Source of the DNA: Candidatus Norongarragalinales archaeon
GTDB taxonomy: Archaea; Micrarchaeota; Micrarchaeia; Norongarragalinales; Norongarragalinaceae
Length of the DNA stretch: 64,000 nucleotides
NCBI GenBank assembly: GCA_038884755.1
Contig: JAWABJ010000001.1
Location: forward strand, 251,378-315,377
Direction of reading: 5' to 3'
Below are positions 18,001 through 64,000 of the stretch, piece by piece. Every line of letters starts with the position of its first letter. The stretch's first letter is position 1. The notes beneath the pieces were generated by a model, which was not told the DNA's origin, ran no database searches, and saw only the letters and a list, made by a program, of their open reading frames with translations. The translations under genes and the position numbers were made by a program.

Positions 18001-20678
18001 GCATTACGCTAATACAAAACCTTTCGGTTTCCAAGCAACGCGGGCAGGGCATTAGTTTCGTGCAGGGCTTGGAGAACGGCGTTTACAACGGGTTTTTCAA
18101 CATCAGCCTGAACGACGTGGTTTCAGGCGACATTGTGAACGTTTCGTTCCTCGCGATTACGAGCGAGACTCCCAAGTTTTCCAACTTCAAGTTTGTTTTC
18201 CACAACGGGCTGCCGAACTGGTTCGACAACCAGACCAAGCTCAACGCCATGCCTTACGCCGGCGGGCCGCCGGCGCAGTTCGACTACTTCCCATGCGGCA
18301 AGGCGGCGATTACGCTAGACATTCCGCTGGGCGGGCAGGGGCAGATTGACTTGAACTCGTCTTGCCGGGACGTGATTTTGCAAGTAGACCCAATAATGCC
18401 TTTGGACGCGATTCCCGTGGAATTCACGCAAAGCTTCAGGAGCAACTGCGGAACCTTGCGCCTGAACCGGCTTTTCCCGCCGACCGACGGCTCGCGCGAC
18501 TTGTCGCAGAAGATTCAATTCGACATGAACCTGTACCCGCAAACGGCGTGGATTTCGTTCAACTCGCAAACCGCTGGTTTGCTTAAAGGAAATTGGTTTG
18601 ACACCGACCCGCGCTTTCCCGGGTTAAACTACCTGGGCAAAGCCACTCTTCGCTTGGACTGCTCGCGCTTGCCCAACAAGTTCGTGGACATCGCGATTAC
18701 TGCGAAAGCCGTCGACTCGCGCATTCCGCCCGTGGACGGAAGCTACATTTACTACGAAGGCATGCCCCACCAGCTGATTTATTCGCTGTACAACGGCCAG
18801 CTTCCGCGCGACTTGCTTGTAAGCCCGTCTAACGAAACCACGACGGTAAAAACCCGTACGAGGGCTTTTGACGCCAGCAACCGCGTCAATTACTTCCTCA
18901 TCAACCACCGTTCCACTCCAATCGGCATTTCCATCAAGGGCACGCCGTCGGAGGAAGGCATTGTAATAAACGAGTTCAGCAACCGCTTTGGCTCGGTGTA
19001 TTCTCACATGATTGCGGTTTCCCACTTGGACTTGATTACGCTCGGCAAGTACCTGCATTTCCTGGACTCGCTGCAGCTCTACCCGCCGTCCCAGCAAAAC
19101 GCGATTTGGAATTCCACTTGCCCGTCGATAGACTACGTGAGCGAAGTGACGCACCAGATTCCGCGCAATTTCGTGGAAGAAGTGAAACGCATTTCGCTAA
19201 TCACGGGCTTCCGCCGTTCGCCGCCCCAAAACGGGTATTGGTGCGGGCACCGCAAGGACCGCCCGCAGGGCGAGCGCACTTGCTATCCAACGATTTTGAA
19301 TTGGATGCAGCCGGGAATCAACGAGACGACGCAAACGATTCAATGCCCCGCTCCCGCGTGCTTGCAGGCAAGCGAAGCCGACCCGGACTCTTACACGGCT
19401 GACGCGATAACGCTTTCGGTTTCCCCCCAGCAGCCTTTCCCGCCTGAAGGGCAGCAGTACGCCTTTTCAATCAAGGATTCGCTCGTGTTGAGCGCTGACG
19501 CGAGCGGGCTTCCCGCGGGCACGAACGTTACGGCCGCGAGCGTGGAATTCAAGAGCAAGGAAAGCGTGGACTGCCCGATTGCCGGCGCAAGCTGGTGTTC
19601 GACGACTTTCTTGAACGACGGAGTGGATTTGCAGAAGGACGCGGGCGGGTTGTGGAACATTTCTTACGCCGGCATTTCAAACGCGCAAAACGGCGAGTAC
19701 GCCGTGCGCATCAAAGCGGCAAACGAAACCGGCGGTGTTTTCTTCTACTCGCCTTGGGTTAGGATAATAGTGGAGAACAATGCCGCCGCTTGCTTTGCGT
19801 TGGGCACCCAGCGCGAGAACGTGCCGTTGTGCGCCGAGCCCGTGTGCGACCCGTTCTGCAGGCCGGATGGGACTAAGGAAATCGTGACCAACGCGGGTCC
19901 CGCCTTGAACGACCCGCAATCGTGGTGGCTGAACGACACTGTCCTGGAGTTCGTGCCTGCGGCGGAAGTGGAAGGGATTGAGAATTACGCGGGAATGCCT
20001 TTCGCTTACTTCAGGCAAAAGGGCATTCTGCAAAACGACTTTTCTTTATCCAGTCCGCTAATGCAGTGGAACTGGAACATTGACGACGTTGCAAACGCAG
20101 GATTTACGATTGAAAACGACGCGAAATGCGTGGCTGGAACAGGGTTTTACGAGCTCAAGGCGTCTAGCGCGGACGGCGAGGAATGGAGTTTCAGCGTGGC
20201 GCTTAAGAAACTGCCTTTGAGCGGGTATTTCCTGAACAACGAGCCTTCCGACTCCGACGCGGCGAGGGAAGGGTATATAGACGATTTGCCTCCAAACCCG
20301 CGTTCTGCCGTTTTCGCCAAAGGCCGGGGTTGTGGAATAGGAACAGACCCGGGTTTTGATGATGAAAAGTTTTTGTGCAACGCCAAAAACCTGGTGGTTG
20401 GAAAGCACACGCACCACGCTAGAAACAGCCAAATTCTCGATTGCTTTATCCCGTGCAAGTACAACAACTGCGGGTATTGCATCAACTTCAACCTGCCTTT
20501 CGAGCAGTACGAGTGGCAAGCTTGCCTTCCGCCGGCGAACAGGAACGACTTTTCCAGCTTCCAGGCTTTGAGGCAGGCGTCGACCAACCCCAACCTGCCT
20601 CCTGAATTGCGTTGGGCTTACGGCGTGGGGCAAGAACTGGGCGGCTGTCCGAACGAAGCGACGCGCATTTCCGATTGA
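15021..20678 (+). CDS. giant membrane-anchored surface protein, paralog 2 (1885 aa)
   Basis: Same N-terminal module and TM (IPSLPAFVIILLALLLGAGWIAM), CarboxypepD_reg-like repeats and conserved core block. Many N-x-S/T sequons and a Cys-rich distal half. No C-terminal TM. Confidence 0.85.
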   Translation: MENQPTGGEQPPSIPAKSNQKTLWDNVEGKYYSFCDWLQDHGLPIYDFFVYPLEDRGIPSLPAFVIILLALLLGAGWIAMGGLSGLGQQAYALQVSVYSEQGPIEGAILTLYKDGGVVSKTKTNSDGISSFEELQAGDYALDAEKEGFETASLAVSVPRESSVDVTLVSKQKISFEGGKQPNGKKTEEGPFNEIDYGDLSLKIFVTDIAGNPLDATANVFDKNAGTKIGTVIVRNGFGSLDGLEAGMVVYADVSAQGHVPYLGKNNATTISAESPNSISVKLFKITNDTESKATLVKVRDLNGTPLNQVLIKVFRKGNPFALIIPNQYTNATGELAIDLNSSGNPDYKILASKTPYVDTETSWFKAGTKVEITLKKQSEMNQSDKDKASNLTVTVTFNGSVVANAAVAVFHDELATREGFTNSQGKISFYILNSRGLTVTVNASKNNMAGSKQVALDSEQVQASVELERRKASVRVRAFNYSNGLLIENAAFEAKTGGATVSSCAVSAPNFDCVLQIGIGLNAEINASAPTFVSETKYLSVNNETMALDFSLLPEYAVQSSLIKDFVVTPEGGNSNVTTLYPGKRYEAKFTLIGKTNSTSDEFGFYFGVETARAVIKRVTPPSTPTKTLGSTTAACNPVQIDYNNANAAWVDLTYAGANGVSSKSVRVVFEVKPLGQGVQESNVTLRYRSFLVQGGKYYRNPLNANDPPETRFEPKSPLASGCNSPTFNALYAINGVGVSCSEYACVSVLFTQNGQQSAKNNFTMMNFGEGSTPPVVMLYEITFKKDVRNNPADISFSFNAPGSFIGLVSASYPDQPDEQGTPPQPPNKIEFLNGTPQSFSADLSHLKRYSNMDEGFKFNGDFVIKPLSSSNVSGEGITLQLAQGVDAVRHNALYNIQANGSQGGCTQNCNEQVENSAKLQMLLRQRRDSGSYITNPLSLYAIGLCSYESILHSFLQVGLPKCAGSFVELNYTVTVNDTQGGRGWVFFNSTANGITLIQNLSVSKQRGQGISFVQGLENGVYNGFFNISLNDVVSGDIVNVSFLAITSETPKFSNFKFVFHNGLPNWFDNQTKLNAMPYAGGPPAQFDYFPCGKAAITLDIPLGGQGQIDLNSSCRDVILQVDPIMPLDAIPVEFTQSFRSNCGTLRLNRLFPPTDGSRDLSQKIQFDMNLYPQTAWISFNSQTAGLLKGNWFDTDPRFPGLNYLGKATLRLDCSRLPNKFVDIAITAKAVDSRIPPVDGSYIYYEGMPHQLIYSLYNGQLPRDLLVSPSNETTTVKTRTRAFDASNRVNYFLINHRSTPIGISIKGTPSEEGIVINEFSNRFGSVYSHMIAVSHLDLITLGKYLHFLDSLQLYPPSQQNAIWNSTCPSIDYVSEVTHQIPRNFVEEVKRISLITGFRRSPPQNGYWCGHRKDRPQGERTCYPTILNWMQPGINETTQTIQCPAPACLQASEADPDSYTADAITLSVSPQQPFPPEGQQYAFSIKDSLVLSADASGLPAGTNVTAASVEFKSKESVDCPIAGASWCSTTFLNDGVDLQKDAGGLWNISYAGISNAQNGEYAVRIKAANETGGVFFYSPWVRIIVENNAAACFALGTQRENVPLCAEPVCDPFCRPDGTKEIVTNAGPALNDPQSWWLNDTVLEFVPAAEVEGIENYAGMPFAYFRQKGILQNDFSLSSPLMQWNWNIDDVANAGFTIENDAKCVAGTGFYELKASSADGEEWSFSVALKKLPLSGYFLNNEPSDSDAAREGYIDDLPPNPRSAVFAKGRGCGIGTDPGFDDEKFLCNAKNLVVGKHTHHARNSQILDCFIPCKYNNCGYCINFNLPFEQYEWQACLPPANRNDFSSFQALRQASTNPNLPPELRWAYGVGQELGGCPNEATRISD
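16761..17495 (+). repeat. conserved core block, copy B (pairs with 11157..11880)
   Basis: See copy A. Shared identical runs include AGCAAGAGCGTGAGAGTGGTTTTCGAAGTAAAGCC and CCCGACGAGCAGGGCACTCCGCC. Confidence 0.8.
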
Positions 20679-20713: not shown

Positions 20714-20787
20714 AGTCAGAAGCTACCTCGGTCATCACAAGTCAGACTGGGACGGTGTCATCACGAAATAGGATTTGTGCAAAGCGC

Positions 20788-20796
20788 TTTTATTAA
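20788..20796 (+). promoter_or_regulatory. candidate TATA box (TTTTATTAA) for the RelA/SpoT-like gene
   Basis: About 35 nt upstream of the ATG at 20829, which supports that start over the track start at 20775. Confidence 0.35.
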
Positions 20797-20828
20797 GATT
20801 GAGTTCAATTGTTTTTATAGCTGGTTTA

Positions 20829-22376
20829 ATGGAAGAAGCTGCTGTTTCGAAAAGGTTTTCACAGAAGTTCGGCGCGCAAATTAGCTTTGCTAGAACGCTT
20901 TATGCCGGCCTCAAAGGAGAAAAGAATTTTGATTTCAACCTTGCCCTTGCGAATTACTTGCATTCCCACCAAGCGGACGATCAGCTTGTTTTAAGCGCTT
21001 TACTAGCCGGTCTGAGTAAAAAAGAGCTGGAGGAAATCAAAAAAAAAGGTGTGGCCAAGCACGTGTTGGAGCAGCACGAGAAAGAATGGGGTTTGGACAG
21101 GAAAGCAGTTAAAGATTTCAGTGAAAACTTGAAAGAGGCTTTAGAGATTATTGCAAGCTATATACAGTTGAAAGCAAATCCGGAAATGGATGCAAACGCG
21201 CATTTTGCAGCCGCGCTTGAAGCCCCCAAGCTACGCGCTTCGTTGTTGCGCGCTGCGGTATTGAACTTCGAACTGGAAAAACCATCAAAACAATCTGCTT
21301 TGCACGTGGAAGTGGCTGAACACGTTTACATTCCGTGGTTGAACCTCTTGGGTTTGGTTGACATGAGCAACGAACTCGGAGAAAAAGTTTTGAAAATCAA
21401 AGACCCTTTAGCATACGAAAAACTCTTTCAACACTTGGAAACAATGCCTGTCAGTAAACGTCCGTTCGGCAAAATGATTGCCTCCTTGAAAAAGAAAATC
21501 AGTAGGCTGGGGTTGGAGATTGAAGACGTTCAGTTCAGGAGAAAATCGATTTACAGCATTTACCAAAAACTCAAGGCTTACGGCTGTCCCGTTGGAAATC
21601 CAGCCTACGACCACGACCCTCGACTTTTAGACGATTTGTATGGGTTGAGGGTTGTTTTGAAGGCTGACGAGACTGAAAGCGAAAGCGAACAAGTTGCAAA
21701 GGCAAGACGAGTGTTGGATGTAGTACGCTCTTCATTCGAAATGCCTAAGGAGGCAAGGATAGACGAGTATGTCGCTGAAAAAGCAAAACCAAGCGGCTAT
21801 AAGGCTATTCACACGCCGGTTATTGGACCGCAGAATTTGCCGATAGAAATTCAAACAGTAACCAAACCATGGCACGCTGCGAACGAAGCTGGTCTTTCTT
21901 CCCATTTTTTCTACAAACTTTCTAAAGCTGTTAGCAGTCCTTTGAGGCAGGTGTTGGTTCGCATTCAAGAAGAGTTGAAGCGGGGCGTGCCGATAGAACG
22001 AGTTTTCAGGAGCATAGGCAAGCCGTTGATTTACGTGACAACCGACCGGTTTGGTCCGCAAGACCACGCTCTTCCTGCAGGTTCTACTCCCTTGGACTTG
22101 TGGTACGCGCATGGTTTCCGCAAGAAGTACGAAGAAAAAATGAAGGGAAAAATATTTTTCGAAACCGTAATGGTAAACGGTGAAACCGTTCCACTAACTA
22201 CTATCCTGAAGCCAGGCGATCACGTGCGTTTTGACGTGAGCGGAAGCCCGCCGAAAGTAGAGCTTATTGACCGGTTTGCGAACGAAGTAGCAACGCCTGA
22301 AGCGAGGGAAGGGTTGTGGAAGTTGAGGAGAAAACTGGGAAAATGGCGTTGGCTCAGGCGAAAGGAAGAGAGCTAA
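20829..22376 (+). CDS. RelA/SpoT homolog (RSH): degenerate HD domain, (p)ppGpp-synthetase domain and TGS domain
   Basis: Synthetase motifs RRKSIYSIYQKL, DDLYGLRVVL, SGYKAIHT, IEIQTVT and HFFYK. TGS-like region IYVTTDRFG...ALPAGSTPLDLWYA...VNGETVPLTTILKPGDHVRF. The N-terminal HD-domain remnant has LLAGL where the HD dyad is expected. Confidence 0.8.
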   Translation: MEEAAVSKRFSQKFGAQISFARTLYAGLKGEKNFDFNLALANYLHSHQADDQLVLSALLAGLSKKELEEIKKKGVAKHVLEQHEKEWGLDRKAVKDFSENLKEALEIIASYIQLKANPEMDANAHFAAALEAPKLRASLLRAAVLNFELEKPSKQSALHVEVAEHVYIPWLNLLGLVDMSNELGEKVLKIKDPLAYEKLFQHLETMPVSKRPFGKMIASLKKKISRLGLEIEDVQFRRKSIYSIYQKLKAYGCPVGNPAYDHDPRLLDDLYGLRVVLKADETESESEQVAKARRVLDVVRSSFEMPKEARIDEYVAEKAKPSGYKAIHTPVIGPQNLPIEIQTVTKPWHAANEAGLSSHFFYKLSKAVSSPLRQVLVRIQEELKRGVPIERVFRSIGKPLIYVTTDRFGPQDHALPAGSTPLDLWYAHGFRKKYEEKMKGKIFFETVMVNGETVPLTTILKPGDHVRFDVSGSPPKVELIDRFANEVATPEAREGLWKLRRKLGKWRWLRRKEES

Positions 22377-32145: not shown

Positions 32146-33141
32146 GTGGTTTTTTTGAAGGAAATAGGCGATTTGCAGCATCCAGTCAAAGCTTGGACTG
32201 CTTTAACCAGGGTTATAGCACACTTGGGGGAAATTCCACAAGAGGATTACTTGCGTAGAAACTATCCCGTCTTGGCTGAAGCGGTTGATTACCACGGCGG
32301 TTTGCATTCTTTGGTCGAAGCAAACAAGCAAGATCTTTCAATTCTTTTGCAAAACGCCTCCGAGCGGCACGAAACTTCCTTGTTGCATTGGAGTCGTGCG
32401 ATGGACGGTAACGAGCACGCGCGGGAAAAGTTAGTTGGTCTTTACAAGCGGCAGGCGGAAAGACTGGCATCAAAGCTTTATTCTCACAAGCTCCGAGGGA
32501 CTTGGAAGGATTGGGTTAGAGTGGACGTTGAAGACTTGGTTCAAGAAGGGCTAGTTTCCCTTGTGCAAGCCCTTCCCCGATACGATCCTTCAAAATCCAA
32601 GTTTCCTAAGTTTGCCCACTTGGTGATGGAGGGCGCTATGAAGCACTACTTGCGCGATAAAGCGCAAGTAATCCGCAAGCCGGCATGGGTTCAAGAGCTT
32701 AGGTCTAAAATGTCCAAGGCTTTCTTCGACTACCAGTCTAGGCACGGCATGAAGCCTACTTTTGAGCAACTGGCAAAACAAGCGAACGTTCCCGTGGAGC
32801 ACGTGATAGAAGCTTTCACTCACTACCAGCCCGTTTCCTTGCAAGCGGCTTTAGATTTTGAAGGCACGGGAAAGGAAGGACGGTTTTTTCAGGAGCCGGC
32901 GGCCCGGGACGAGTTGGAGCCGCTTGCTTTGAAAATGATTTTCTACAAGGCTTTGCGTGACCACGTGAAACTGTCGAAAATGCAGGCTGTGGCGTTAGGC
33001 ATGTCTGCAGATGGGCATTCTCTCGAGGAGATTGCAACGCACTTAGGAGTTTCACCCGACTCTGCAGGGCAGTTGGTTTACCAGGCGAAAAAGAAAATAA
33101 GGGAAAACCTGCTGTTCAAGCGCGAGCTTGGTATAAACTGA
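32146..33141 (+). CDS. sigma-70 family RNA polymerase sigma factor homolog
   Basis: Region 1.2/2: GNEHAREKLVGLYKRQAERLASKL...VEDLVQEGLVSLVQALPRYDPSKSKFPKFAHLVMEGAMKHYLRD..IRKP. Region 3: KPTFEQLAKQANVPVEHV. Region 4 HTH: LSKMQAVALGMSADGHSLEEIATHLGVSPDSAGQLVYQAKKKIRENL. Confidence 0.75.
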   Translation: MVFLKEIGDLQHPVKAWTALTRVIAHLGEIPQEDYLRRNYPVLAEAVDYHGGLHSLVEANKQDLSILLQNASERHETSLLHWSRAMDGNEHAREKLVGLYKRQAERLASKLYSHKLRGTWKDWVRVDVEDLVQEGLVSLVQALPRYDPSKSKFPKFAHLVMEGAMKHYLRDKAQVIRKPAWVQELRSKMSKAFFDYQSRHGMKPTFEQLAKQANVPVEHVIEAFTHYQPVSLQAALDFEGTGKEGRFFQEPAARDELEPLALKMIFYKALRDHVKLSKMQAVALGMSADGHSLEEIATHLGVSPDSAGQLVYQAKKKIRENLLFKRELGIN

Positions 33142-45387: not shown

Positions 45388-45903
45388 TCATCCCGGTGGC
45401 GTTGGAACTTCATAGTCTATTTCCGGAGATGGTTCCAGCGAAGGCTGTGGTTGTGTGTCTTCCACTAACTCTTCTTCGCTATTTTCAACAAAAACATCTT
45501 CCGGCGTTTCTTCCTGTTGTTGTCCGCTTTCACTTTCTTCTGACGATTGAATGTTTTCATTATCTTCTGACGATTGAATGTTTTCATTAACGGTTTTTTC
45601 TACCGTATTTTTTAAAGTTTGTGGGGAAGGGTTCAATTCCAAGTTTTTTTCAATAGAACTACTAACCTCTCTTGAAGGTAATGGCGGGTGCAAGAAGAAC
45701 GCGGAAGTCAAAACCAAACCCAAAAATAAGATTATCGCCGCGTTTAAGGACGGAATTCCCCTGTCTTCCAGCGGGTATATGAACCACTCGTAAACCCTCA
45801 ACCCCTTGTTTTCAAGCCAATCGCAAACTCCGTAATAATAGTTTTCAAGCTTTTCCCAAAAAGTAGGAGTTTTTGAATCCCCTTGTCCCTTCTCTCCGTA
45901 CAT
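45388..45903 (-). CDS. short paralog carrying only the giant-protein N-terminal module, a TM helix and an acidic tail
   Basis: 171 aa. FWEKLENYYYGVCDWLENKGLRVYEWFIYPLEDRGIPSLN aligns to the N-termini of the giant proteins. It is followed by a TM helix and a tail with an acidic 9-aa tandem repeat. Confidence 0.75.
   Translation of the reverse strand: MYGEKGQGDSKTPTFWEKLENYYYGVCDWLENKGLRVYEWFIYPLEDRGIPSLNAAIILFLGLVLTSAFFLHPPLPSREVSSSIEKNLELNPSPQTLKNTVEKTVNENIQSSEDNENIQSSEESESGQQQEETPEDVFVENSEEELVEDTQPQPSLEPSPEIDYEVPTPPG
45535..45588. repeat. 2 x 27-nt tandem repeat (encodes NENIQSSED / NENIQSSEE)
   Basis: 45535..45561 and 45562..45588 differ at one position, and the repeat is in frame within the 171-aa ORF. 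Confidence 0.9.
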
Positions 45904-45918
45904 GTTAATTCCGTTTTT

Positions 45919-46950
45919 TCAACTCTTCATTACGGTTGCGTACTCTATGACCACTAGGTTGGGGGTGTATTCTTGTGCTTTGCTTCCTCTGGGTGACGTG
46001 TATCCTGTTGGGTTGTCTGCGAATGCTACTCTGGGGTAGTTGTTTGTTACTGCTCCGTATAGTGGGTTTCCGTATTGGTTTGGTTTTTGGTTTTGCCAGC
46101 GGACTTCGTATCCGAAGGGTTTGTCTGATATCGTGTTGCTCCAAATGGGGTTGTAGTTGGAGTCCCATTTGGGTGCTGTGAATTGTCGGTTTTTTTGGTC
46201 GTAGGTTATCGTCCAGTATGGGTCGCAGTTTAGGGTGTTGCATACTCTTGGGTTTTTGGATCCGGAGTATGGTGTTTTTTCTGGAATGGCTATTATGAGT
46301 ATTCCGTCGTTTTTGAGTGGTCCGGCTGTGGGTTCGTTTGAGTCCATTATAATGATTGTTGCTTGTTCCTGGGAGTTGTAGTTGTAGTATAGTGGGTTGA
46401 CTGCTACTTTTCCTCCTAGTTCTTGGGATGCGTTGCCGTAGCCTACGGGTTTGTATCTGTCGATTTGTGGGCTTATTTTTTGGAAGATTGTGCCTGCTGT
46501 GAATGTTTCTTTTGAGTCTGCGGTTGTGGCTTGTGGAGTGGTTAGAATCAGTACTTCGTTTGTTGCTGTGAATGCGCCGGGTATTTGCGAGGATATTCGA
46601 ATGAAATCTCCCCTAAGAAGAGTTCCATCCCTTTCGAGTATTATTCCCGTTTGAGGGAGAGACATTAAAGTCAGCGTGTCTTCCTTGTTAGTAAACTTTG
46701 AACCTCCCGAGTTTGAATCGGAAAACTTTAGAGTGCATTTGTCTGCTACCGTCAAGGAATACCCGCTTCCCGGTTCAAATGTTGTCGCCAAAGTGAAATT
46801 TTTGTAATAGTTGTAGTTGTCGATGATTTCGTACTTCCAAGGGCCGCTTTCAACAACGCAGTTGTTTTTGATTGACTCGAAGTCGATGGTTTGACTCCAG
46901 CCTATTTGATTCTTGCCTTCAAACAATTCAATGCTGTAAACTCCGCGCAT
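45919..46950 (-). CDS. N/Y/T-rich beta-type extracellular-looking protein without signal peptide (possible 5'-truncated S-layer-like gene)
   Basis: 343 aa in a lower-GC region with no N-terminal hydrophobic segment. The C-terminal ...TSPRGSKAQEYTPNLVVIEYA is reminiscent of archaeal S-layer C-terminal domains, but this is from memory and is weak. It abuts the transposase fragment. Confidence 0.5.
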   Translation of the reverse strand: MRGVYSIELFEGKNQIGWSQTIDFESIKNNCVVESGPWKYEIIDNYNYYKNFTLATTFEPGSGYSLTVADKCTLKFSDSNSGGSKFTNKEDTLTLMSLPQTGIILERDGTLLRGDFIRISSQIPGAFTATNEVLILTTPQATTADSKETFTAGTIFQKISPQIDRYKPVGYGNASQELGGKVAVNPLYYNYNSQEQATIIIMDSNEPTAGPLKNDGILIIAIPEKTPYSGSKNPRVCNTLNCDPYWTITYDQKNRQFTAPKWDSNYNPIWSNTISDKPFGYEVRWQNQKPNQYGNPLYGAVTNNYPRVAFADNPTGYTSPRGSKAQEYTPNLVVIEYATVMKS

Positions 46951-46987
46951 GCTGTTATAAATTCTTTCTTTAAAAGCACGAGGCTCT

Positions 46988-47242
46988 TTGCTATGGAAGA
47001 AAATGTTTCACTTTTTCCAGCTAAACCAAGAAGAGTTTTACCGCCATTACCACTTACGAAGCAACGTGGAAAGCACGTTTAACATGATTAAAGCCAAGTT
47101 CGGCGATGTTTTGAAAAGCAAGACGAAAACGGCGCAGGAGAACGAGTTGTTGCTGAAAATCTTGTGCCACAACCTCGTGGTAGTAATTCACGAAACAAAC
47201 GAGTTAGGCATTACCGCCGATTTTCTGTGTAAAAAGGTTTGA
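46988..47242 (+). mobile_element. C-terminal fragment of a DDE (IS4/IS5-type) transposase; IS remnant
   Basis: An 84-aa ORF holding only the C-terminal signature region Y-x2-R-x3-E-x6-K (YHLRSNVESTFNMIKAKFG). No N-terminal part is present upstream. Nested inverted repeats lie directly downstream. Confidence 0.65.
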
Positions 47243-49787: not shown

Positions 49788-50342
49788 TTAGCACTTGAAC
49801 GTCGAAGCCATGTAGTTTACCATTTTCAAGTCTTGCTTGAGCGAAACGGGTATTAGCGAAGTGAGTATTGCGTTGTAGGAAGGGCATTCGAAGTAATGCA
49901 GCCTTACCGTGATTTTTTCTCCCGCGATTTCTTTTTCGAAGGAAATTACCGTCGCCTTGCCGAACGCTTTTCCTTGCGAAAGGGTTTTCCTTTCCTGCGA
50001 ATCGAGCGAATCTATAGTATCCGCGGTCAGGGACTGCACGTTTTCGCTTGCAACAGTTATTTCAACCACTTCCGCAATTCCGCGTCCGGATGCGCTGAAA
50101 CTCACGCGGATTGGGCTGGAAGGATCGGGCGATTCGACGGCCCTGAACGACTGCGGATAGCTTATCTCGAATCCAAGCTCGTTCCTGTAAGCAAGGAAAT
50201 CGTCTTGGCTTACGCCCGAGTAGTCTTCAAACGCATTTGCCCCGAAGAAGGGCTGAACGTAACCCAGTCCCACGAGAATGCCTACCGCTAGGATTACCGC
50301 CGTGACAATCGATATTACCGTTTTGTTCATGTGTTTCATCAC
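49788..50342 (-). CDS. small membrane-anchored/secreted protein coupled to giant gene 3
   Basis: 184 aa with the N-terminal anchor KTVISIVTAVILAVGILVGLGYV. Its start codon overlaps the stop of the 3040-aa gene (GTGATGA). Confidence 0.65.
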   Translation of the reverse strand: MMKHMNKTVISIVTAVILAVGILVGLGYVQPFFGANAFEDYSGVSQDDFLAYRNELGFEISYPQSFRAVESPDPSSPIRVSFSASGRGIAEVVEITVASENVQSLTADTIDSLDSQERKTLSQGKAFGKATVISFEKEIAGEKITVRLHYFECPSYNAILTSLIPVSLKQDLKMVNYMASTFKC

Positions 50343-53300
50343 GCGTTTCGTTCTCTCATCTGGTTCGCGGTGTTTTCCAACGCGATTTTGGCTTTGGAAG
50401 CGGCTTCCTCTTCCTTTCCTTCCACCACTTGCACGCTCAAAATTTCTTCGCCCGACGGGGTTTTTTCTACTATCACGAGTCCTTGAGACTGCATTTCGTC
50501 GAGCGTTTGCCTGGCGTTTTTGACCGCGTCGAAGCTTGCGTCTCCGTTCGCTATTGCCGCGAGCGTTTCGACGCTACCCTGCGCTTGCTCCCTCGCGTCT
50601 CCCGCGGCGGTTTCTTCGGAATCCCCTTCTTGGGAGTAATCGCAAGGCGCGCCTATTTCTTTTTCAGTCAATTCTGCTTCAACGTTTCCTTGGAACGTGG
50701 GTTCGACGTCGGGCGCGAACAGGGAATCAAACAATTCAATGTAGTCATAAGAACCTCCGCTGGCGTCGATGAAGAACATGGCGTACGCAGGAATCTTCTC
50801 TCCCTTTTGCACTACGCCACTGTAGGGAATGTCGAGTTTCTTTACGTACAGGCATGCTTCCTTCCCTTCGCAAGCCTGTTGGGTGAAGCAAAGCCTTTTT
50901 TCCTTGTCGCACTTTTTGGTGGCAGGGTCGTAGTAGCAATACGCTACCGTGGAAGGATTGCCGTTTTCGGCGAAATGCATTGAAACCAAATAGTTCGTGA
51001 CTCGTTCGGCCAAAGGCGCTTCGACAGGCTCGCTTTGCACGTTGGTAATCAAGCTGAGCAACGCGGTGGGCGCGTATTGCGCTAGCAGCCTTCCGATTCT
51101 CGCTATTCCCCTTGGCTTCTGCACTTGGGGGGTTGAAACCGGTTGCGTAGGCGCCCCGCCTGTTTCTACTTGCTGCGGCGTTCCTCCTGTTGCAGGCGCA
51201 GCTCCGCCTGCTCCTGCCCCGCCGCCCGTAGGCCCGCCGATATTTTGCCCTCCGTGAACCGTTCCGAAGTTTTGGTTTCCGTAATTGATATTGAAGAAGT
51301 TGTTGTTTATCCGCTCGTAAGCGTTTTTGGTTGTGGAAAAAACTCCGCCGGGATTTGTCGCCGCCCTGTAGTAGGAGTAATAGGACGCCCTGGCGCTTGT
51401 AGCTGCTTGTCCTGCAGCCGACGACGCGCCTGCAGCGGGAATTTCTTGGGGCAGGAACGGGACAGGAAGATAGCGTTGGTATGGCACGGGCAGCATGTTA
51501 GGGCGCCTTACTATGGCTCGGTACGGCACTAGCGCAGTTCCTTCTTGCGTTATTCTTGCTGTTGCCTTTCGTTCGACGTCGGACAAAATCCTGTTTTTCA
51601 CGTCCGGAGTGATTTCTCCGAAGTTGAACTGGTGGCTTTGCCTTCCCGAACGGAAGAATTCGTTGTACAAATAACGCATTTCTTCGGATTCGGAGCCTGT
51701 GAGCGTGCTTTTAGCGACGAGTTCGTCGAGCCTTTGCGCCGCGAAGTAATCGCTGGCGTAGCCTTCAATCACCGCGCCTGTGACTGGCGAGAGTGCAACT
51801 GCAGTGAACGCGCCTGTTTGCCTTCCGAAGCTTCCGCCCGTGACAGCCGCAATGTTGCTTCCTCCGTAAACCGCAGTCGGGTCTTCAACCGAACCGGTTA
51901 TTGCCGAGCTTACGTAAGTGAACGTGGCGCTTCCCAAAGCGCGCAAGGCGATTTGCCTGAATGCGGCTGAAGCCGGCCCGCCGAAGCCGGCGTCTATGAA
52001 CGCCTGGGGGTACATCACGAAACGCAAGTGAGTGCAGAAGTCTGTTCCGGTGCAGGCGTTTGAAGCTGAAACTCCTTTCACGATTCCGCACGAAGAGAGG
52101 GTTTCAACGTTGTACAAAATGAGGTTGGCGCACAACCTTGCTATAAACCCTTGCTGGGGGCCGGGAATGAACGCGCTCGCGCAAGCTGCTGCAGTCCCTC
52201 CGTGCCAGCCTATTGCCAACGCATTTTTCATTCCCTGCACGTTGGCTTCGCACAACGCGCCGTCGTCGAAAAACGGTTTGGAACTGTCGACGAAACCGTT
52301 GGTGTTGAGGTTGTCAAACACTTGCGGGGAGAGCGAGTACATCGAACTCACGATTTGCCCGGCCATCTTGTAGTCGTTCGCGTCGGCTTTCTCCGAGTAC
52401 TTGCCTATTTCAATGAAGTCAGGCAAGCCGTTGAAGCGCATGTTCACCGGGCTTTCGATTATTTCATTGCCGGTATACACGAACAAGTCGTCAGCGGGCA
52501 TGAGCAAAGGCGCGTTGGCGAGGGTTTCCTCGCAGCTCATGAGTTTTTGCGAGCGGAATTCGATTTGCAGCGGCTTTTTGCCGCCCTCGATTTTCTTTGG
52601 GTCGAACTCGCAGAACCCTCCGCTTGCGGCGGGGTTCAAGTGCGCTTCGACCAAGTACGCGCCGCATCCCGTGAAGTCGATTTTAGCCTGTTCCGAAACC
52701 TTGAACTCCTTGAATTTCGACTGCCTTCCGATTTGCTCGGCCATTTGCTTCATGGCGTCGTCCAAATCGGCGGCAGCGCGCGTGTTGGACAAGTGCAGGA
52801 CGAAGCTCATTTTCCACGGGAGGTTGGTGCAAACCGTCTTCACGCTTGAAGTGTCGTTGGTTTCGGCGTCGAATTTCATGGACGCCACGCTCATGAAGTT
52901 GCAAATCGCGTTTATCGCCGAATCGTAAGTGCAGAAGTTGTTTTGGCAGTACGCGTAGTTGAAGCCCGGGTCGCACTGCACTTGCTTTTTCTTCAGCTGC
53001 GCGCCTGCGACGGGCGAGGGAGTGGGCGTGGGTTTTTCTCCCGTCGCTCCAACCCAAAGCGTTCCTATTGGCGTGGACGGGTAGAGCGACTCGCTTCCTG
53101 CGGGGGGAGTAAACACTTGCACTTTCAAGGTTTTAACTCTCTCTTCGCCGGTTCTCGCGCCTTTCGCTATGATTTTATAGTCGCTTGCGCTGGCGTGCTT
53201 GGCTTCGCATTCGAGGAAGATGCTTTCGCCTTTCGCAAGGATTTTTCCTCCGGCCACGCTTGCGCCGCGCGCGTTGTCGTAGTAGAAGCAGGATATCTGC

Positions 53301-62500: not shown

Positions 62501-64000
62501 ACGTCCGTCGGCTCGACGTTCAAAAAGTTCGTTGAAACTACTGGCACGTCGCGCGACTGGGCTTTGGCGAATTCAACTCCCGCGTCTGCTTCGACTGCGA
62601 AAGTCCCTACAGTTCTCGGGAAAACGCTTTTGAAGACGTAAATGCCGTTCTTGCCCGAGTCTTTCTGCCCGTCTCCAGCAAGAGTGTTTCCGCCGTTGGG
62701 AAATCCCAAGAACGGGTGGGTTTCGCCAGTTTCTATGATAGTGAGCACCGCGTTTTCAATTGGCCTTCCTTGCGCTGTAGTGAGCGTGACACGAAGGGGC
62801 TGGAATTCAGGGTCGTTCGGGGGAACGTTCGCTTCCATGACTTGAGGCGTTACGGTCAAAACCATTTGTCCAGTTCCAGTAAACTCGAGCACCGCGTCTG
62901 TTGCTGCAATCGGCCCGCCGTCGTCGGCAAACTCGGCTTTCACTGGCATGTAGTTTCCAGGAGCGCGTGCGTTCGCGATTGTCGAAACAGTTGCTTCCCC
63001 ATCCACAAGAGCAGGCTGGTGCAACTGTTTTTCTATTTCAAGCTTGTTCGACGTTGTGGAAAACCTTGCGATGGGGTTTTCTACCGTTTCGGGCGCGAAG
63101 GCTTTGACTTTCGCTTCGAGCAAAACCTGCTTTCCGAATTCCACGCTCAAAAACCGCGAGGACGTTTTGTTGTCGCTTTTCAGCGTAAGCGTAATGCAGC
63201 CTTTGTCGGTGCACTTTTGAAACCCTTGCGTAACCTTGTATTCGGAGCTTAGGGTTTCAGCAAAACAATGTTCTTTTGCCGGAACGTTTTCTTTAGTCCC
63301 AAGCTCTGCGTCTTCAGGCACTCTCGCCCACAAGCCGTTCTTGACTGCGAAAGCGCGGTAGCGAAAGTCTATCTTTTCGTTCGCTATTGCCGTGGGGCGA
63401 ATGCGTATTTTGGCGGAAAGCGTTTTCACGCCGACTTTTCCAGACGGGTATGAAAACGAAACCCATTTTCTTTCCGAACCGCTTTGCTGTTGCGCCTCTT
63501 GCAGGCAAGTGTTTTCTTGGTTGAAAGTGTTTCCAAAGTCTATTTGCGCGCGGTCTTCCTGCGGCGGCCTGTCGAACGAAGCGATGAACGCCTTTTCTTC
63601 GGCAATCGCCTGCTTGTCGCCCACCCGCAAGTAAAACCCTGTCTTCTGGGCTTGCGGGAAGCTCACGACGAGCGAAGCCTTGTACCATCCTCCCCTTTCC
63701 AGTTCTGTTGCAGAGTGTTCGGCGTCCAAAACCCCGCTTCCGGTGGAATCCATCTTGTACAAGGAAAAGTTGAGTATTTGCACGTCTTTCGCAAGGTTGG
63801 AAGGAAGCATGAGAATGGTTTTCGCCAGCTCTTGGCCTGTTGCGAGCGTAAGCTCTTCGCTTTGCGTGACTGCATAGCCGTCCGCTTCGGCTTTCAAGAG
63901 GACGGGAACGTTGGCGTAGACCGAGAGGTTGCAGTAAGAACCGTTGGAAGGAGTGTTGCATGACGCTATAGCCTGGTCTTTGTAGAACGCGGTTATGGTT
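59515..64000 (-). CDS. giant surface protein, paralog 4 (partial; N-terminus beyond the window edge)
   Basis: The reading frame stays open from 63897 to 64000; I translated it by hand and found no stop. The protein is therefore at least 1495 aa. It has a CarboxypepD_reg-like repeat (KAEADGYAVTQSEE), a divergent core block, Cys-rich segments and a P/S/T linker near the C-terminus. Confidence 0.85.
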   Translation of the reverse strand, partial: TITAFYKDQAIASCNTPSNGSYCNLSVYANVPVLLKAEADGYAVTQSEELTLATGQELAKTILMLPSNLAKDVQILNFSLYKMDSTGSGVLDAEHSATELERGGWYKASLVVSFPQAQKTGFYLRVGDKQAIAEEKAFIASFDRPPQEDRAQIDFGNTFNQENTCLQEAQQQSGSERKWVSFSYPSGKVGVKTLSAKIRIRPTAIANEKIDFRYRAFAVKNGLWARVPEDAELGTKENVPAKEHCFAETLSSEYKVTQGFQKCTDKGCITLTLKSDNKTSSRFLSVEFGKQVLLEAKVKAFAPETVENPIARFSTTSNKLEIEKQLHQPALVDGEATVSTIANARAPGNYMPVKAEFADDGGPIAATDAVLEFTGTGQMVLTVTPQVMEANVPPNDPEFQPLRVTLTTAQGRPIENAVLTIIETGETHPFLGFPNGGNTLAGDGQKDSGKNGIYVFKSVFPRTVGTFAVEADAGVEFAKAQSRDVPVVSTNFLNVEPTDVFVSGATACNSGVQLLLTKTIPVEAQVHYQVSGGSNESQCVEVLQPPRSPFTMKKGKAGQNEKTQVRVRPIKNTDCSLAFNSVLEGSGSAGFAETNFVVDCASLGEPSPTPSPGACSKENCTACNEGQCINLQNQGACKAVYENNQFKRCEQRKTQENKTADFCAAQRFDLGSLLASRLGFMSAQRIFNPNRNDRALAASATNRIVRIPRPPFFQIERASPDCEIQNGKLVCTKKVSPLVPSNGIALSLKNALGFNTQIATETKKPQCFSIRKVENIGLAKIGDFARKTISGAFRLPGGQYATLVVLFEPDQPGCAEYSYDQEKGVTLTPAQGRNELTLTIRDASNLGQAVKLDIVLKIEGESSKYAIASAPNFQSLNGIATRVNNAVEPAVIANNLQFESVEVGDAKIPAKDIASVAVGFPAEGYEFKIGTKTQPNIKTIQNNIEKASFDAVGNARTGVDAVSACTGQEFCFIENNKDFEQALKEEISEDLRKITGTMDSVSFTQAFDYDRVMLETAMTSALQDYLAGLIAYEACKKAGEDPIGDLRQRCASNRLSPQELPLNMGDAFASGFLAATCDSEVLNLASYATSGSVGLPGGYLNTLARRLVTQYILPGRAPIQVNHRIFRNLDTLINVPVKIAGEKGGFVVYSFQPSESIGLHQSGGYPDDFFGMQGFGSQCVPGDQSTCPFPNQCQFDPSVGMGRCVPGALYNNPFQFGPGFDAGNPFDYSYSDAQFQTPLNDDAVIVELKGTYGFGTQDYKRTDKSSSGFAASGMPYLKAGNPAELKGDGGSPNLLTMNKYGFADEIDTKDFLSVFSNAQQAQLAEFFKQELSKEALSAQVKEAIKSNALATEKTVKVVLKAGNESSISIKPIAPPAPSPSATPLPSPSPSPLPSPRPTPTPKAYEGFQYVQPKLSPNLVEKKLDEKPSATPEFELTVMFKVDADNPVKLDAQNSLKSVLAALKYLLDEKAPPLTCQLQASESSVSNAEACAVGR

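What the first reader, a model, noticed from the sequence alone, without database searches (positions are those of the whole stretch)
45388..45903. Conserved N-terminal cytoplasmic module plus G-I-P-S-L junction shared by the giant proteins and a 171-aa module-only gene
Aligned by eye:
- P1: FFESVEESYYSFCDSLQEKGIKVYDWFVDPLEKNGIPSLP
- P2: LWDNVEGKYYSFCDWLQDHGLPIYDFFVYPLEDRGIPSLP
- 171-aa ORF: FWEKLENYYYGVCDWLENKGLRVYEWFIYPLEDRGIPSLN
- P3, short form: WWENFSYSLEEKGIPPWAIP

In every case a hydrophobic helix follows immediately.

I do not recognise the ~40-aa motif (W/F-x2-[VL]-E-x2-YY-x2-CD-W-L-x3-G-x2-[VI]-Y-[DE]-[WF]-F-x2-PLE-x2-GIPSL) as any named signal or domain.

The junction [KRN]-G-|-I-P followed by a hydrophobic stretch resembles a class III (prepilin-like) cleavage site. 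However, it is preceded by a long conserved domain rather than a short leader.

The module could be one of the following:
- a dedicated sorting or secretion tag;
- a cytoplasmic docking domain;
- a cleavable pro-region.

The 171-aa gene carries only the module, the TM helix and an acidic repeat tail. It could be a decoy, a regulator, or the stump of a deleted giant gene.
Basis: partly seen in the sequence, partly recalled or inferred. Interest (0 to 1): 0.7.

Follow-up and report, generated by a model that had tools for sequence, protein, structure and literature searches.

The report
Conserved N-terminal anchor of archaeal giant proteins
A roughly 45-residue, two-helix module followed directly by a membrane helix heads hundreds of giant surface proteins of tiny DPANN archaea (Micrarchaeota, Iainarchaeota); it is real, strongly conserved and absent from the domain libraries searched, and it looks like a cytoplasmic cap on a permanent membrane anchor rather than a pilin-type cleavage site.

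Summary
The 171-aa ORF (45388..45903, minus strand) and the N-termini of three giant ORFs (1838, 1885 and 3040 aa) carry the motif. A six-frame scan finds exactly these four copies.

An exhaustive profile search finds 624 protein clusters (167 at E<=1e-10). The match always lies in the first ~100 residues, mostly of 1,600-4,800-aa proteins. The few members with organism names are Micrarchaeota or Iainarchaeum.

No Pfam, NCBIfam, PDB or Foldseek match explains the module.

Anatomy:
- It is a tandem duplication of a 15-residue unit (F-x-D/N-x-L/I-E-x-K/R-G-I/V-P).
- AlphaFold models it with high confidence (pLDDT 95) as two helices followed by a ~21-residue membrane helix.
- A transthyretin/CnaB-like beta-sandwich follows within about 10 residues.

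Best reading: an uncleaved N-in signal-anchor whose folded, acidic cytoplasmic hairpin fixes topology and/or docks partners.

- Only 63% of members satisfy the -1/-2 rule.
- One conserved paralogue group lacks the R-G dipeptide altogether.
- The same K/R-G-I-P turn occurs in the first repeat, away from any membrane helix.
- The leader is long, acidic and folded.
- However, in other clades a pilin-like gene sits directly upstream of the giants (22 of 48 sources), usually beside a pilus-type assembly ATPase and platform protein and an exosortase-family gene (about 14 loci).

The 171-aa gene is a singleton, an old paralogue, and not a demonstrable stump.

The parts
45388..45903 (-). 171-aa gene: N-terminal module, one membrane helix, acidic low-complexity tail
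   Evidence: ORF. Module HMM E = 1.3e-26. It is its own 50%-identity cluster representative (P0005).
45742..45870 (-). Module of the 171-aa protein (residues 12-54, TPTFWEKLENYYYGVCDWLENKGLRVYEWFIYPLEDRGIPSLN)
   Evidence: Coordinates. Column conservation. N54 replaces the otherwise 143/150 conserved Pro.
45808..45861 (-). Helix 1 (residues 15-32), ending in the first repeat unit VCDWLENKGLR (45796..45828)
   Evidence: AlphaFold2 model, pLDDT 94.9, helix at segment residues 8-25. Repeat at offset 15.
45763..45795 (-). Helix 2 (residues 37-47), ending in the second repeat unit FIYPLEDRGIP (45751..45783)
   Evidence: AlphaFold2 helix at segment residues 30-40. Repeat analysis.
45691..45750 (-). 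Membrane helix of the 171-aa protein (residues 52-71)
   Evidence: AlphaFold2 helix at segment residues 45-64. Hydropathy.
45391..45687 (-). Acidic, Ser/Glu/Pro/Gln-rich tail (residues 73-171), including a 27-nt x 2.3 tandem repeat at 45528..45589
   Evidence: Tandem repeat. No homology to the giants in any frame.
9462..14978 (+). Giant protein A (1838 aa). Module at 9495..9617, membrane helix at 9618..9677, then CarboxypepD_reg/Ig-like domains. A further hydrophobic, Cys-containing region lies near the C-terminus.
   Evidence: Orthologues in L003, L004, L009 and L013.
15021..20678 (+). Giant protein B (1885 aa), tandem paralogue of A. Module at 15084..15206, membrane helix at 15207..15266, first beta-sandwich immediately after.
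   Evidence: A and B are 47% identical over 935 aa. Module HMM E = 5.7e-29. AlphaFold2 model of residues 58-182 has pLDDT 91.7.
50339..59461 (-). Giant protein C (3040 aa) with a one-repeat short module (59384..59440, VREWWENFSYSLEEKGIPP) and a membrane helix (59324..59383). The likely start is the ATG at 59450..59452.
59515..64000 (-). 3' part of a fourth giant gene, whose reading frame is open to the right end of the window, so its N-terminus (and any module) lies outside
   Evidence: Frame open to position 64000. Homologous to the interior of module-bearing giants in L005 and L006.

Best explanation
The module is the cytoplasmic head of a lineage-specific N-terminal signal-anchor used by DPANN archaea (Micrarchaeota, Iainarchaeota) for very large adhesin- or stalk-like surface proteins.

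Shown:
- About 45 residues form two helices built from a duplicated 15-residue unit (F-x-D/N-x-L/I-E-x-K/R-G-I/V-P).
- The second unit runs through a near-invariant I/V-P-S-F/L-P into a ~21-residue apolar helix.
- A transthyretin/CnaB-like beta-sandwich begins about 10 residues later, followed by thousands of residues of ectodomain.

Inferred:
- The apolar helix is not removed. It inserts N-in/C-out through the Sec route and stays as the anchor.
- The hairpin folds as it leaves the ribosome and cannot cross the membrane. It therefore fixes the orientation of an anchor whose flanking charges give no positive-inside signal.
- The hairpin then remains as an acidic, aromatic-rich platform at the inner membrane face, for docking or clustering. 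Partners could be the other module-bearing proteins, which are usually encoded in tandem.
- The K/R-G-I/V-P elements are helix-capping turns of the repeat, not protease sites.
- The 171-aa protein is a minimal, old paralogue that displays only a disordered acidic tail. Its hairpin is better preserved than its membrane helix, which suggests that the hairpin itself is the part under selection.
For: Family and position:
- 624 clusters at E<=1e-3 and 167 at E<=1e-10. In all 150 listed the match lies within the first ~100 residues. Median length of the 151 proteins then held is 1452 aa, maximum 4792 aa.
- In 47 loci plus the window there are 61 module hits, 60 of them full-length and all of those N-terminal. 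29 of 36 complete ORFs are 1634-2671 aa.

Conservation:
- E46 150/150, P51 148, S52 142, P54 143, G49 138, E20 140, Y24 135.
- The module is more conserved than the rest of the protein: 79-84% identity between orthologues, against 69-71% overall.

Structure:
- Internal repeat at offset 15: 17.9 bits, against -25 +/- 12 for all positions and offsets tested. The ten best windows all have offset 15.
- AlphaFold2 model of the module: pLDDT 94.9, pTM 0.72, three helices.
- Uninterrupted apolar stretch: median 21 residues, 10th-90th percentile 18-25. N-terminal part: median 49 aa, net charge -2.3. Flank charges -0.76 and -0.32, so charge gives no orientation signal.
- AlphaFold2 model of the helix plus first domain: pLDDT 91.7. 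Foldseek top matches are transthyretin-like, CnaB and SdrD stalk domains and the S-layer stalk protein SlaB. Pfam finds CarboxypepD_reg, Big_1 and SpaA.

Context:
- Another membrane protein in the window (49788..50342) has an ordinary short N-terminus, so the module is not the general export signal.
- The principle that folding of the N-terminal domain influences signal-anchor orientation is established for the ER (abstract of PMC2139883, listed).
- The 171-aa module is 53-67% identical to the giants' modules, but its membrane helix is only 18-41% identical.
Against: - No experiment. Topology is inferred only from domain content, and the flanks do not obey the positive-inside rule.
- Small residues after the helix mean that signal peptidase I cleavage cannot be excluded from sequence.
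- The strongest conservation is at E-x-K/R-G-I/V-P-S-F/L-P, exactly at the membrane interface. That is what a recognition site for a membrane enzyme would look like.
- In 22 of 48 sources a class III pilin-like gene sits directly upstream of the giant. About 14 loci also hold a T2SSE ATPase, a T2SSF-like protein and an exosortase-family gene. This hints at a dedicated pathway that this explanation does not use.
- No partner of the hairpin has been identified. Oligomerisation is suggested only by tandem gene arrangement and by small residues (G/A, then G) in the middle of the membrane helix.
Confidence: 0.5

Rival explanations
1. Class III-type (prepilin-like) leader. The hairpin is an unusually long leader removed at K/R-G|I/V-P on the cytoplasmic face by a GxGD aspartyl protease (PibD/FlaK-type, or the presenilin/SPP homologue). 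The freed hydrophobic helix then lets the giant protein join or cap a type IV pilus-like structure.
For: - G at -1 in 138/150 and R/K at -2 in 102/150. A hydrophobic helix follows at once.
- In 22 of 48 sources a gene with a textbook class III N-terminus (..KG|FSLFTPL..) lies directly upstream of the giant, often overlapping it. About 14 loci also carry T2SSE (PF00437, E = 3.7e-17), a weak T2SSF-like match and 4-5 small pilin-like genes.
- The window encodes a presenilin/SPP homologue at 3841..4656.
Against: - Only 94/150 meet the archaeal rule of G/A/S at -1 plus a charged -2 (rule from PMC4371748). Giant A in the window has N at -2.
- A paralogue group conserved in six loci reads IDKVMPSF, with no R-G.
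- The same K/R-G-I/V-P turn is repeated 15 residues upstream, with no membrane helix after it.
- The leader has a median of 49 aa, is acidic and folds at pLDDT 95.
- Pro occupies +2 (148/150) and +5 (143/150), positions inside what would be the pilin core helix.
- The domain after the helix matches transthyretin/CnaB folds, with no archaeal pilin or archaellin in the top 50.
- There are no pilus genes next to the giants in the window or in its clade, L001-L016.
Confidence: 0.13
2. Extended cleavable Sec signal peptide. This would be the archaeal counterpart in function of ESPR, YSIRK or KxYKxGKxW leaders of very large bacterial surface proteins. The hairpin tunes targeting or the pace of translocation, and the whole 70-residue leader is removed by signal peptidase I after the apolar helix.
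For: - Exclusive association with very large secreted-type proteins.
- A G/S/P/A-rich linker after the apolar stretch.
- The analogy with ESPR-type leaders rests on my own knowledge.
Against: - The apolar stretch has a median of 21 residues (18-25), which is long for a cleaved h-region.
- No conserved small-x-small motif appears in the aligned columns after it.
- There are no Pfam or NCBIfam matches to ESPR, YSIRK or KxYKxGKxW models.
- If the leader were cleaved, most giants would have no anchor at all, because they have no C-terminal membrane helix or sorting signal.
Confidence: 0.12
3. The 171-aa gene is a decaying stump of a giant gene (by deletion or partial duplication) with no function of its own.
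For: - It is a singleton: no orthologue in 1.84 billion representatives other than itself, none in metagenome contigs, and not on record elsewhere.
- P54 is replaced by N, unique among the 150. Its membrane helix is divergent.
- A 5'-truncated DDE transposase remnant lies 1.1 kb away at 46988..47242.
- In L007/L008 a 282-aa short form sits where giant B would be, after the giant A orthologue.
Against: - No trace of ectodomain sequence in any frame between 44000 and 47400.
- The reading frame is intact and all other conserved module positions are kept.
- The module is as distant from type A as from type B (53-67%), so it is not a recent copy.
- Other short, complete module proteins exist (282, 395, 526 and 926 aa).
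Confidence: 0.35

Closest known systems
Uncleaved type II signal-anchor with a folded cytoplasmic N-domain (ER and bacterial membrane-protein topogenesis)
   Same: - A single long apolar helix near the N-terminus.
- A large C-terminal part of extracellular type.
- An N-terminal domain that would be retained in the cytoplasm by folding.
   Different: - Here the N-domain is a conserved family of its own, built from a 15-residue duplication.
- It is restricted to one archaeal group and almost always attached to giant proteins.
- No positive-inside charge bias.
Extended signal peptides of very large bacterial surface proteins: ESPR (PF13018), YSIRK (PF04650), KxYKxGKxW (TIGR03715)
   Same: A conserved sequence block ahead of the hydrophobic core, found specifically on very large surface proteins. 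This may be the same kind of solution.
   Different: - No sequence relationship (no hits).
- Archaeal rather than bacterial.
- The block is a confidently folded two-helix hairpin.
- The apolar segment has membrane-anchor length.
- Cleavage is not indicated.
Archaeal class III (type IV prepilin-like) signal peptides processed by PibD/FlaK/EppA
   Same: - K/R-G followed by a hydrophobic helix at the cytoplasmic face.
- Pilin-like and pilus-assembly genes lie next to the giants in some clades.
   Different: - The leader is about 49 aa, acidic and folded, instead of short and charged.
- The -1/-2 rule is met in only 63% of members.
- Pro at +2 and +5.
- The motif is duplicated internally.
- The fold after the helix is not pilin-like.
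Exosortase/archaeosortase sorting signals (PEP-CTERM, PGF-CTERM, PEF-CTERM, Loki-CTERM)
   Same: - A short Pro-containing motif abutting a membrane helix on surface proteins.
- A small exosortase-family gene sits next to the giants in about 14 related loci.
- 3 of 77 modules give faint Loki-CTERM hits (E = 0.04).
   Different: - Those signals are C-terminal, with the motif on the outer face and a basic tail.
- This one is N-terminal, with the motif on the presumed inner face.
- The hits are not significant.
Helix-extension-helix motifs (SAP/LEM/Ish1, PF10281)
   Same: The first repeat (L-D-W-L-x-x-H/K-G-I/V-P-V) resembles the L-x-x-W-L-x-x-x-G-I core. 6 of 77 members hit Ish1 below threshold.
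   Different: - The best hit is 22.4 bits against a cut-off of 26.6, and covers only 11-15 residues.
- The module is net acidic, unlike nucleic-acid-binding HeH domains.
- No Foldseek support.

Membership tests
Class III (prepilin-type) signal peptide, archaeal | G/A/S at -1 and a charged residue at -2 (PMC4371748) | tested here: not met
   94 of 150 representatives meet both. At -1: G 138, N 7, R 3, K 2. At -2: R 75, K 27, and uncharged in 48. Window giant A has N-G. The third-paralogue group reads K-V-M-P-S-F.
Class III (prepilin-type) signal peptide, archaeal | Short charged N-region immediately before the processing site | tested here: not met
   Median 49 aa before the helix (range 36-79), net charge -2.3. 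It folds as two helices at pLDDT 94.9.
Class III (prepilin-type) signal peptide, archaeal | Hydrophobic H-domain directly after the site | tested here: met
   Apolar stretch with a median of 21 residues, but with Pro at +2 (148/150) and +5 (143/150).
Class III (prepilin-type) signal peptide, archaeal | Prepilin peptidase and type IV pilus assembly genes present or linked | tested here: inconclusive
   None among the window ORFs scanned with Pfam, and no class III-like N-terminus was seen in the window. In related loci: an upstream pilin-like gene in 22 of 48 sources, and T2SSE, a T2SSF-like protein and small pilin-like genes in about 14. No peptidase A24 was identified, and whole genomes were not available.
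Class III (prepilin-type) signal peptide, archaeal | Pilin- or archaellin-type globular domain after the N-terminal helix | tested here: not met
   Foldseek on the model of helix plus first domain (pLDDT 91.7) gives transthyretin-like, CnaB, SdrD and SlaB. No archaeal pilin or archaellin appears among the 50 best.
ESPR / YSIRK / KxYKxGKxW extended signal peptides | Match to the family model (PF13018, PF04650, TIGR03715) | tested here: not met
   No such hit for the window proteins or for 77 family members, in Pfam at E<=1 and in NCBIfam at E<=1 (window proteins) or E<=0.1 (family members).
ESPR / YSIRK / KxYKxGKxW extended signal peptides | Leader removed by signal peptidase I after a short h-region | not testable with these tools
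   The apolar stretch of 18-25 residues argues against it. Proteomics is needed.
Uncleaved type II signal-anchor | One apolar helix of membrane-spanning length near the N-terminus, with extracellular-type domains C-terminal to it | tested here: met
   (helix). (CarboxypepD_reg, Big_1, SpaA, transthyretin/CnaB-like).
Uncleaved type II signal-anchor | Positive-inside charge bias | tested here: not met
   Mean net charge is -0.76 in the 15 residues before the helix and -0.32 in the 15 after it.
Uncleaved type II signal-anchor | N-terminus in the cytoplasm and anchor retained in the mature protein | not testable with these tools
   Needs protease protection, reporter fusions or N-terminomics.
HeH / Ish1 (PF10281) | Score at or above the Pfam gathering threshold over the motif | tested here: not met
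   6 of 77 members hit, all below threshold. The best is 22.4 bits against 26.6, covering 11 residues.
Exosortase/archaeosortase C-terminal sorting domains | Motif, membrane helix and basic cluster at the extreme C-terminus | tested here: not met
   The module is N-terminal. The C-termini of complete giants have no membrane helix or basic tail. Only faint Loki-CTERM and PEF-CTERM hits (E = 0.04).

The most novel reading that the evidence does not exclude
The near-invariant E-x-K/R-G-I/V-P-S-F/L-P junction plus the membrane helix is a new, N-terminal protein-sorting signal. A dedicated membrane enzyme would recognise it at the inner membrane face. Candidates are a GxGD protease such as the presenilin/SPP homologue or a prepilin peptidase, or the small exosortase-family protein encoded beside the giants in other clades. 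That enzyme would process the giant host-attachment proteins or hand them to the neighbouring type IV pilus-like machine. The folded hairpin would be the recognition handle. This would be a mirror image of the PEP-CTERM/PGF-CTERM systems and the first sorting system known for DPANN giant surface proteins.
Probability: 0.12. Interest if true: 0.85.

Novelty: new variant of a known kind. Interest (0 to 1): 0.6.

Why it matters
DPANN archaea are ultrasmall and largely host-dependent. They spend a remarkable share of their roughly 1-Mb genomes on giant surface proteins that are thought to mediate attachment to hosts. How these proteins are targeted, oriented and anchored is unknown.

A single, easily recognised 45-residue N-terminal module marks hundreds of them. 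That gives:
- a sequence handle for cataloguing this class of proteins in metagenomes;
- a compact, well-folded target for structural and binding studies;
- a concrete, testable question, namely whether the module is kept as a cytoplasmic platform or removed, that bears on how a 2,000-4,800-residue ectodomain is exported by a minimal cell.

The link in some clades to pilin-like genes, a pilus-type assembly ATPase and an exosortase-family gene suggests a composite surface apparatus worth imaging in the few cultivated Micrarchaeota.

Tried and rejected
- Word-indexed homologue search with two alignments gave only 4 hits each. The exhaustive representative search was needed.
- Foldseek of the module model found 0 matches in PDB and nothing meaningful in BFVD. 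PDB sequence search with the profile gave nothing below E = 0.15.
- HeH/Ish1 resemblance: followed up and found sub-threshold and very short. Also rejected on charge, because the module is acidic.
- Viral contigs: no relatives.
- Orthologues of the 171-aa gene: none in metagenome contigs and no exact record.
- Remnants of a giant ectodomain around the 171-aa gene, in all frames: none.
- The upstream 343-aa ORF has no Pfam or NCBIfam family and no relative in the held loci.
- Micrarchaeota S-layer protein (bioRxiv 10.1101/2021.04.28.441871): a different, 101-kDa protein with a short N-terminal signal or anchor, not this module.
- Literature searches for the motif or for DPANN giant-protein N-termini found no description.
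- One-repeat short forms other than the window's 3040-aa protein: none in the 47 loci.
- A linker-fused 'dimer' AlphaFold run was considered and dropped. The tool returns no coordinates or contacts, so the result could not be interpreted.
- The alignment A3 was too diverse for the locus finder, so A2 was used instead.
Full report
**1. Observation**

The ORF at 45388..45903 (minus strand, ATG, 171 aa) is present as described.
- at the N-terminus of ORF 9462..14978 (+, 1838 aa, 'A');
- at the N-terminus of ORF 15021..20678 (+, 1885 aa, 'B');
- at the N-terminus of ORF 50339..59461 (-, 3040 aa, 'C', short form);
- in the 171-aa ORF.

A six-frame scan for an acidic/basic-x-G-[IVL]-P junction followed by a hydrophobic stretch returns exactly these four sites in 64 kb. 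Each is followed by a segment of membrane-spanning hydropathy. The tail of the 171-aa protein contains a 27-nt x 2.3 tandem repeat (45528..45589).

The window is archaeal: MCM, RIO kinase, archaeal-type aminoacyl-tRNA synthetases, an A-type ATPase operon and an H+-pyrophosphatase. It has 52% G+C. Its closest relatives are Candidatus Micrarchaeota / Norongarragalinales assemblies.

**2. It is a large, unnamed family**

The module gives no hit in Pfam-A or NCBIfam. This holds for the window proteins and for 77 diverse members scanned one by one. The only matches in those N-terminal regions are to the beta-sandwich domains that follow the membrane helix.

A profile of six modules was scored against 1.84 billion representative proteins:
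- 624 clusters at E<=1e-3 and 167 at E<=1e-10.
- In all 150 listed, the match lies within the first ~100 residues.
- The median length of the 151 proteins then held is 1452 aa and the maximum 4792 aa. Many of the short entries are contig-truncated fragments.

Members that carry source names are Candidatus Micrarchaeota or Candidatus Iainarchaeum. They are annotated 'hypothetical' or 'carboxypeptidase regulatory-like domain-containing'.

In 47 fetched loci plus the window, a module HMM finds 61 hits. Sixty are full-length and all of those are N-terminal; the 61st is a partial second match inside an L018 giant. Of 36 ORFs complete at the 3' end, 29 are 1634-2671 aa. The short complete ones are 171 aa (window), 282, 395, 526 and 926 aa.

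Module-bearing genes commonly occur as tandem pairs or triples: the window's A/B, and L005, L006, L009, L022, L032, L033, L040 and L045. The block RIO - TIM - ArgRS(-) - giant A, extended by giant B wherever the contig continues, is syntenic in the window's clade; MCM lies upstream in the window and L004.

I found no description of the module in the literature that could be searched. The published Micrarchaeota S-layer protein is a different, 101-kDa protein.

**3. Anatomy**

Column statistics on 150 representatives (numbering of the 171-aa protein): E46 150/150, P51 148, P54 143, S52 142, E20 140, G49 138, P44 138, Y24 135, D28 133, L30 131, Y38 130.

The module is an internal duplication. 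Comparing profile columns at all offsets, the ten best 12-column windows all have offset 15, with a top score of 17.9 bits against -25 +/- 12 for all windows. This aligns F26-x-D-x-L-E-x-K-G-I-P36 with F41-x-N-x-I-E-x-R-G-I-P51. Protein C's short form has one unit instead of two. No other one-unit form exists in the held loci.

AlphaFold2, using 77 sequences, models residues 8-73 of the 171-aa protein with mean pLDDT 94.9 and pTM 0.72. It gives helix 15-32, turn K-G-L-R, helix 37-47, turn R-G-I-P, and helix 52-71. Foldseek finds nothing similar in the PDB (0 matches) or in BFVD. The profile finds nothing significant among PDB sequences.

Six of 77 members touch Pfam Ish1, a helix-extension-helix motif. 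The hits are below threshold (best 22.4 against 26.6 bits) and cover only 11-15 residues. This is a motif-level resemblance, not membership.

The stretch before the membrane helix has a median of 49 aa (range 36-79) and a net charge of -2.3. The uninterrupted apolar stretch has a median of 21 residues (10th-90th percentile 18-25). The 15-residue flanks carry -0.76 and -0.32, so there is no positive-inside signal.

A second model covers B residues 58-182 (pLDDT 91.7). It shows the helix, a short linker and a seven-stranded beta-sandwich. The best structural matches are transthyretin-like domains of carboxypeptidases, CnaB/SdrD stalk domains of Gram-positive adhesins, and the Sulfolobus S-layer stalk protein SlaB. 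The full giants carry CarboxypepD_reg, Big_1 and SpaA-type domains, then long stretches without a Pfam match. Most have no C-terminal membrane helix or sorting signal.

**4. Mechanism**

The best-supported reading is an uncleaved, N-in/C-out signal-anchor with a folded cytoplasmic cap.

Shown:
- the conserved duplicated hairpin;
- the anchor-length helix;
- the extracellular-type domains that follow immediately;
- the restriction to this class of proteins. A neighbouring membrane protein (49788..50342) has an ordinary short N-terminus.

Inferred:
- The helix is retained. Its length fits an anchor, no conserved small-x-small site follows it, and most giants would otherwise have no anchor.
- The hairpin stays in the cytoplasm. 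Because the flanking charges are uninformative, its rapid folding is a plausible determinant of orientation. This principle is established for ER signal-anchors (abstract of PMC2139883, listed).
- The hairpin may be a docking or clustering surface. Its aromatic and acidic faces are conserved, the middle of the membrane helix has conserved small residues (position 65 G/A/S, position 66 G in 79 of 147 occupied), and the genes are arranged in tandem.

Between orthologues the module is more conserved (79-84%) than the whole protein (69-71%).

**5. The class III idea**

For:
- G at -1 in 92% and R/K at -2 in 68% of members.
- A hydrophobic helix follows immediately.
- An unexpected genomic context in other clades. 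In 22 of 48 sources a 280-610-aa gene with a textbook class III N-terminus (M..KG|F[STN]LFT[PA]L...) lies directly upstream of the giant and often overlaps it.
- About 14 loci also hold, divergently transcribed, a T2SSE ATPase (PF00437, E = 3.7e-17), a T2SSF-like polytopic protein (weak), four to five small pilin-like genes, and a small exosortase/archaeosortase-family protein (TIGR04178 46 bits against a cut-off of 23; PF09721 32.6 against 25.7).

Against:
- Only 94 of 150 members satisfy the archaeal requirement of G/A/S at -1 plus a charged -2 (rule quoted from PMC4371748). Giant A in the window has N at -2.
- A third tandem paralogue, conserved in six loci, reads I-D-K-V-M-P-S-F: the R-G is gone and P-S-F is kept.
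- The K/R-G-I/V-P turn also occurs in the first repeat, away from any membrane helix.
- The 'leader' is long, acidic and folded.
- Pro at +2 and +5 is nearly invariant.
- The domain after the helix is not pilin-like.
- The window and its clade have no pilus genes beside the giants.

I rate processing before the helix at about 0.13. The neighbourhood is better read as functional association: adhesin-like giants encoded next to an adhesion-pilus locus. It does keep open a more novel possibility, that the invariant junction is a recognition site for a membrane enzyme.

**6. The 171-aa gene**

- It is intact and keeps all conserved module positions except P54 (N instead, unique among 150).
- Its tail has no similarity to any giant. 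No frame between 44000 and 47400 holds ectodomain remnants.
- Its module is 53-67% identical to both A-type and B-type modules, which are 51-72% identical to each other. Its membrane helix is only 18-41% identical, against 29-76% between the giants of the two types. It is therefore an old, separate paralogue in which the hairpin is the best-kept part.
- It has no orthologue. It is its own 50% cluster representative, is not on record elsewhere, and has no relative in metagenome contigs.
- A comparable short form, P0014 (282 aa), is complete in two contigs. It consists of module, helix, a small Cys-rich region and a Pro/Thr/Ser tail, and it sits after the giant A orthologue where giant B would be.
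- The 171-aa gene starts 15 nt after an orphan 343-aa ORF, and a 5'-truncated DDE transposase remnant lies at 46988..47242, so the region has been rearranged.

Whether the small protein is a functional minimal member (a partner, spacer or competitor for whatever binds the hairpin) or a slowly decaying relic cannot be decided here. I put the relic reading at about 0.35.

**7. Comparison, novelty and verdict**

In function the module most resembles two known things: the conserved leaders that bacteria place ahead of the hydrophobic core of very large surface proteins (ESPR, YSIRK, KxYKxGKxW), and type II signal-anchors with a folded cytoplasmic domain. It is a member of none of these families by sequence. 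It also fails the defining tests for class III signals, HeH motifs and C-terminal sortase signals.

It is a new, lineage-restricted domain family of at least several hundred clusters. I score it as a new variant of a known kind, a specialised N-terminal leader or anchor for giant surface proteins. Interest is 0.6: a specialist in archaeal cell surfaces would find it useful and somewhat surprising, and it turns the question of how DPANN cells export and anchor their giant proteins into a set of simple experiments.

Noticed in passing
related loci L017-L047 (e.g. L035 1181..16153; L026 1318..16281; L018 8070..20199): In two clades the module-bearing giant is immediately preceded, often with overlapping stop and start, by a 280-610-aa gene with a class III pilin-type N-terminus (..KG|FSLFTPL..). 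In about 14 loci it also lies beside a divergent operon holding a T2SSE ATPase, a T2SSF-like protein, 4-5 small pilin-like genes and a small exosortase/archaeosortase-family gene. Several small polytopic membrane proteins follow the giant.
   Followed up: partly
window 32146..33141 (+): A 331-aa ORF in this archaeal contig is a bacterial-type sigma-70 family protein. Pfam finds Sigma70_r2 at E = 1.7e-12 plus region 4. It aligns over regions 2-4 with SigA structures (E = 2e-11). A sigma factor homologue in a Micrarchaeota genome is unexpected.
   Followed up: partly
window 3841..4656 (+): A presenilin/signal-peptide-peptidase homologue (PF06550 at E = 4.7e-14; PDB 4hyc PSH at E = 6.5e-8). It is conserved in the same syntenic block in L002 and L004, about 5 kb upstream of giants A and B. 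GxGD proteases of this type cut membrane helices, so it is a candidate to test on the anchor. No specific link is shown.
   Followed up: partly
window 59515..64000 (-): The 1460-aa 'ORF' is the 3' part of a fourth giant gene whose frame stays open to the end of the window. It is tandem with the 3040-aa gene and homologous to the interior of module-bearing giants in L005 and L006. Its N-terminus lies outside the window.
   Followed up: yes
window 14607..14978 (+); L003, L007, L008, L009, L013: Giant A ends in a conserved region about 190 aa long. It has at least one further strongly hydrophobic segment and a paired G-C-K..G-C-K/R motif. This region is 60-63% identical in L003, L009 and L013 and 36% in L007 and L008. 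A-type giants may therefore be tethered at both ends. B-type giants lack it.
   Followed up: partly
L018 17221.., L022 7915.., L032 17373.., L033 17088.., L040 17204.., L045 16985..: A third tandem paralogue has a degenerate module (..YYKFVERTGLYKITDKIDKVMPSFLLF..). The second R-G turn is lost but P-S-F and the membrane helix are kept.
   Followed up: partly
L014 324..1904 and L015 5752..7332: A 526-aa module-bearing protein carries, after one beta-sandwich, a domain with H-G ... D-A-C spacing that suggests a caspase/gingipain-like cysteine protease. The module therefore also anchors proteins that are not giants.
   Followed up: no
window 45919..47242: An orphan 343-aa ORF with no family, no membrane helix and no relatives in the held loci ends 15 nt before the 171-aa gene. 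Its 5' end abuts the C-terminal fragment of a DDE (IS4/IS5-type) transposase at 46988..47242 that lacks its own N-terminal part, which points to a past rearrangement.
   Followed up: partly
window 49788..50342 (-): A 184-aa ORF with an ordinary short N-terminal membrane helix overlaps the stop codon of the 3040-aa giant gene by 4 nt, which suggests translational coupling. It has no family and no relatives in the held loci.
   Followed up: no
window 20775..22376 (+); L013 8880..10391: A RelA/SpoT-domain protein (PF04607, E = 4.5e-17) directly follows giant B and keeps that position in L013 (56% identity). An alarmone synthetase-like gene is unusual in an archaeon.
   Followed up: no
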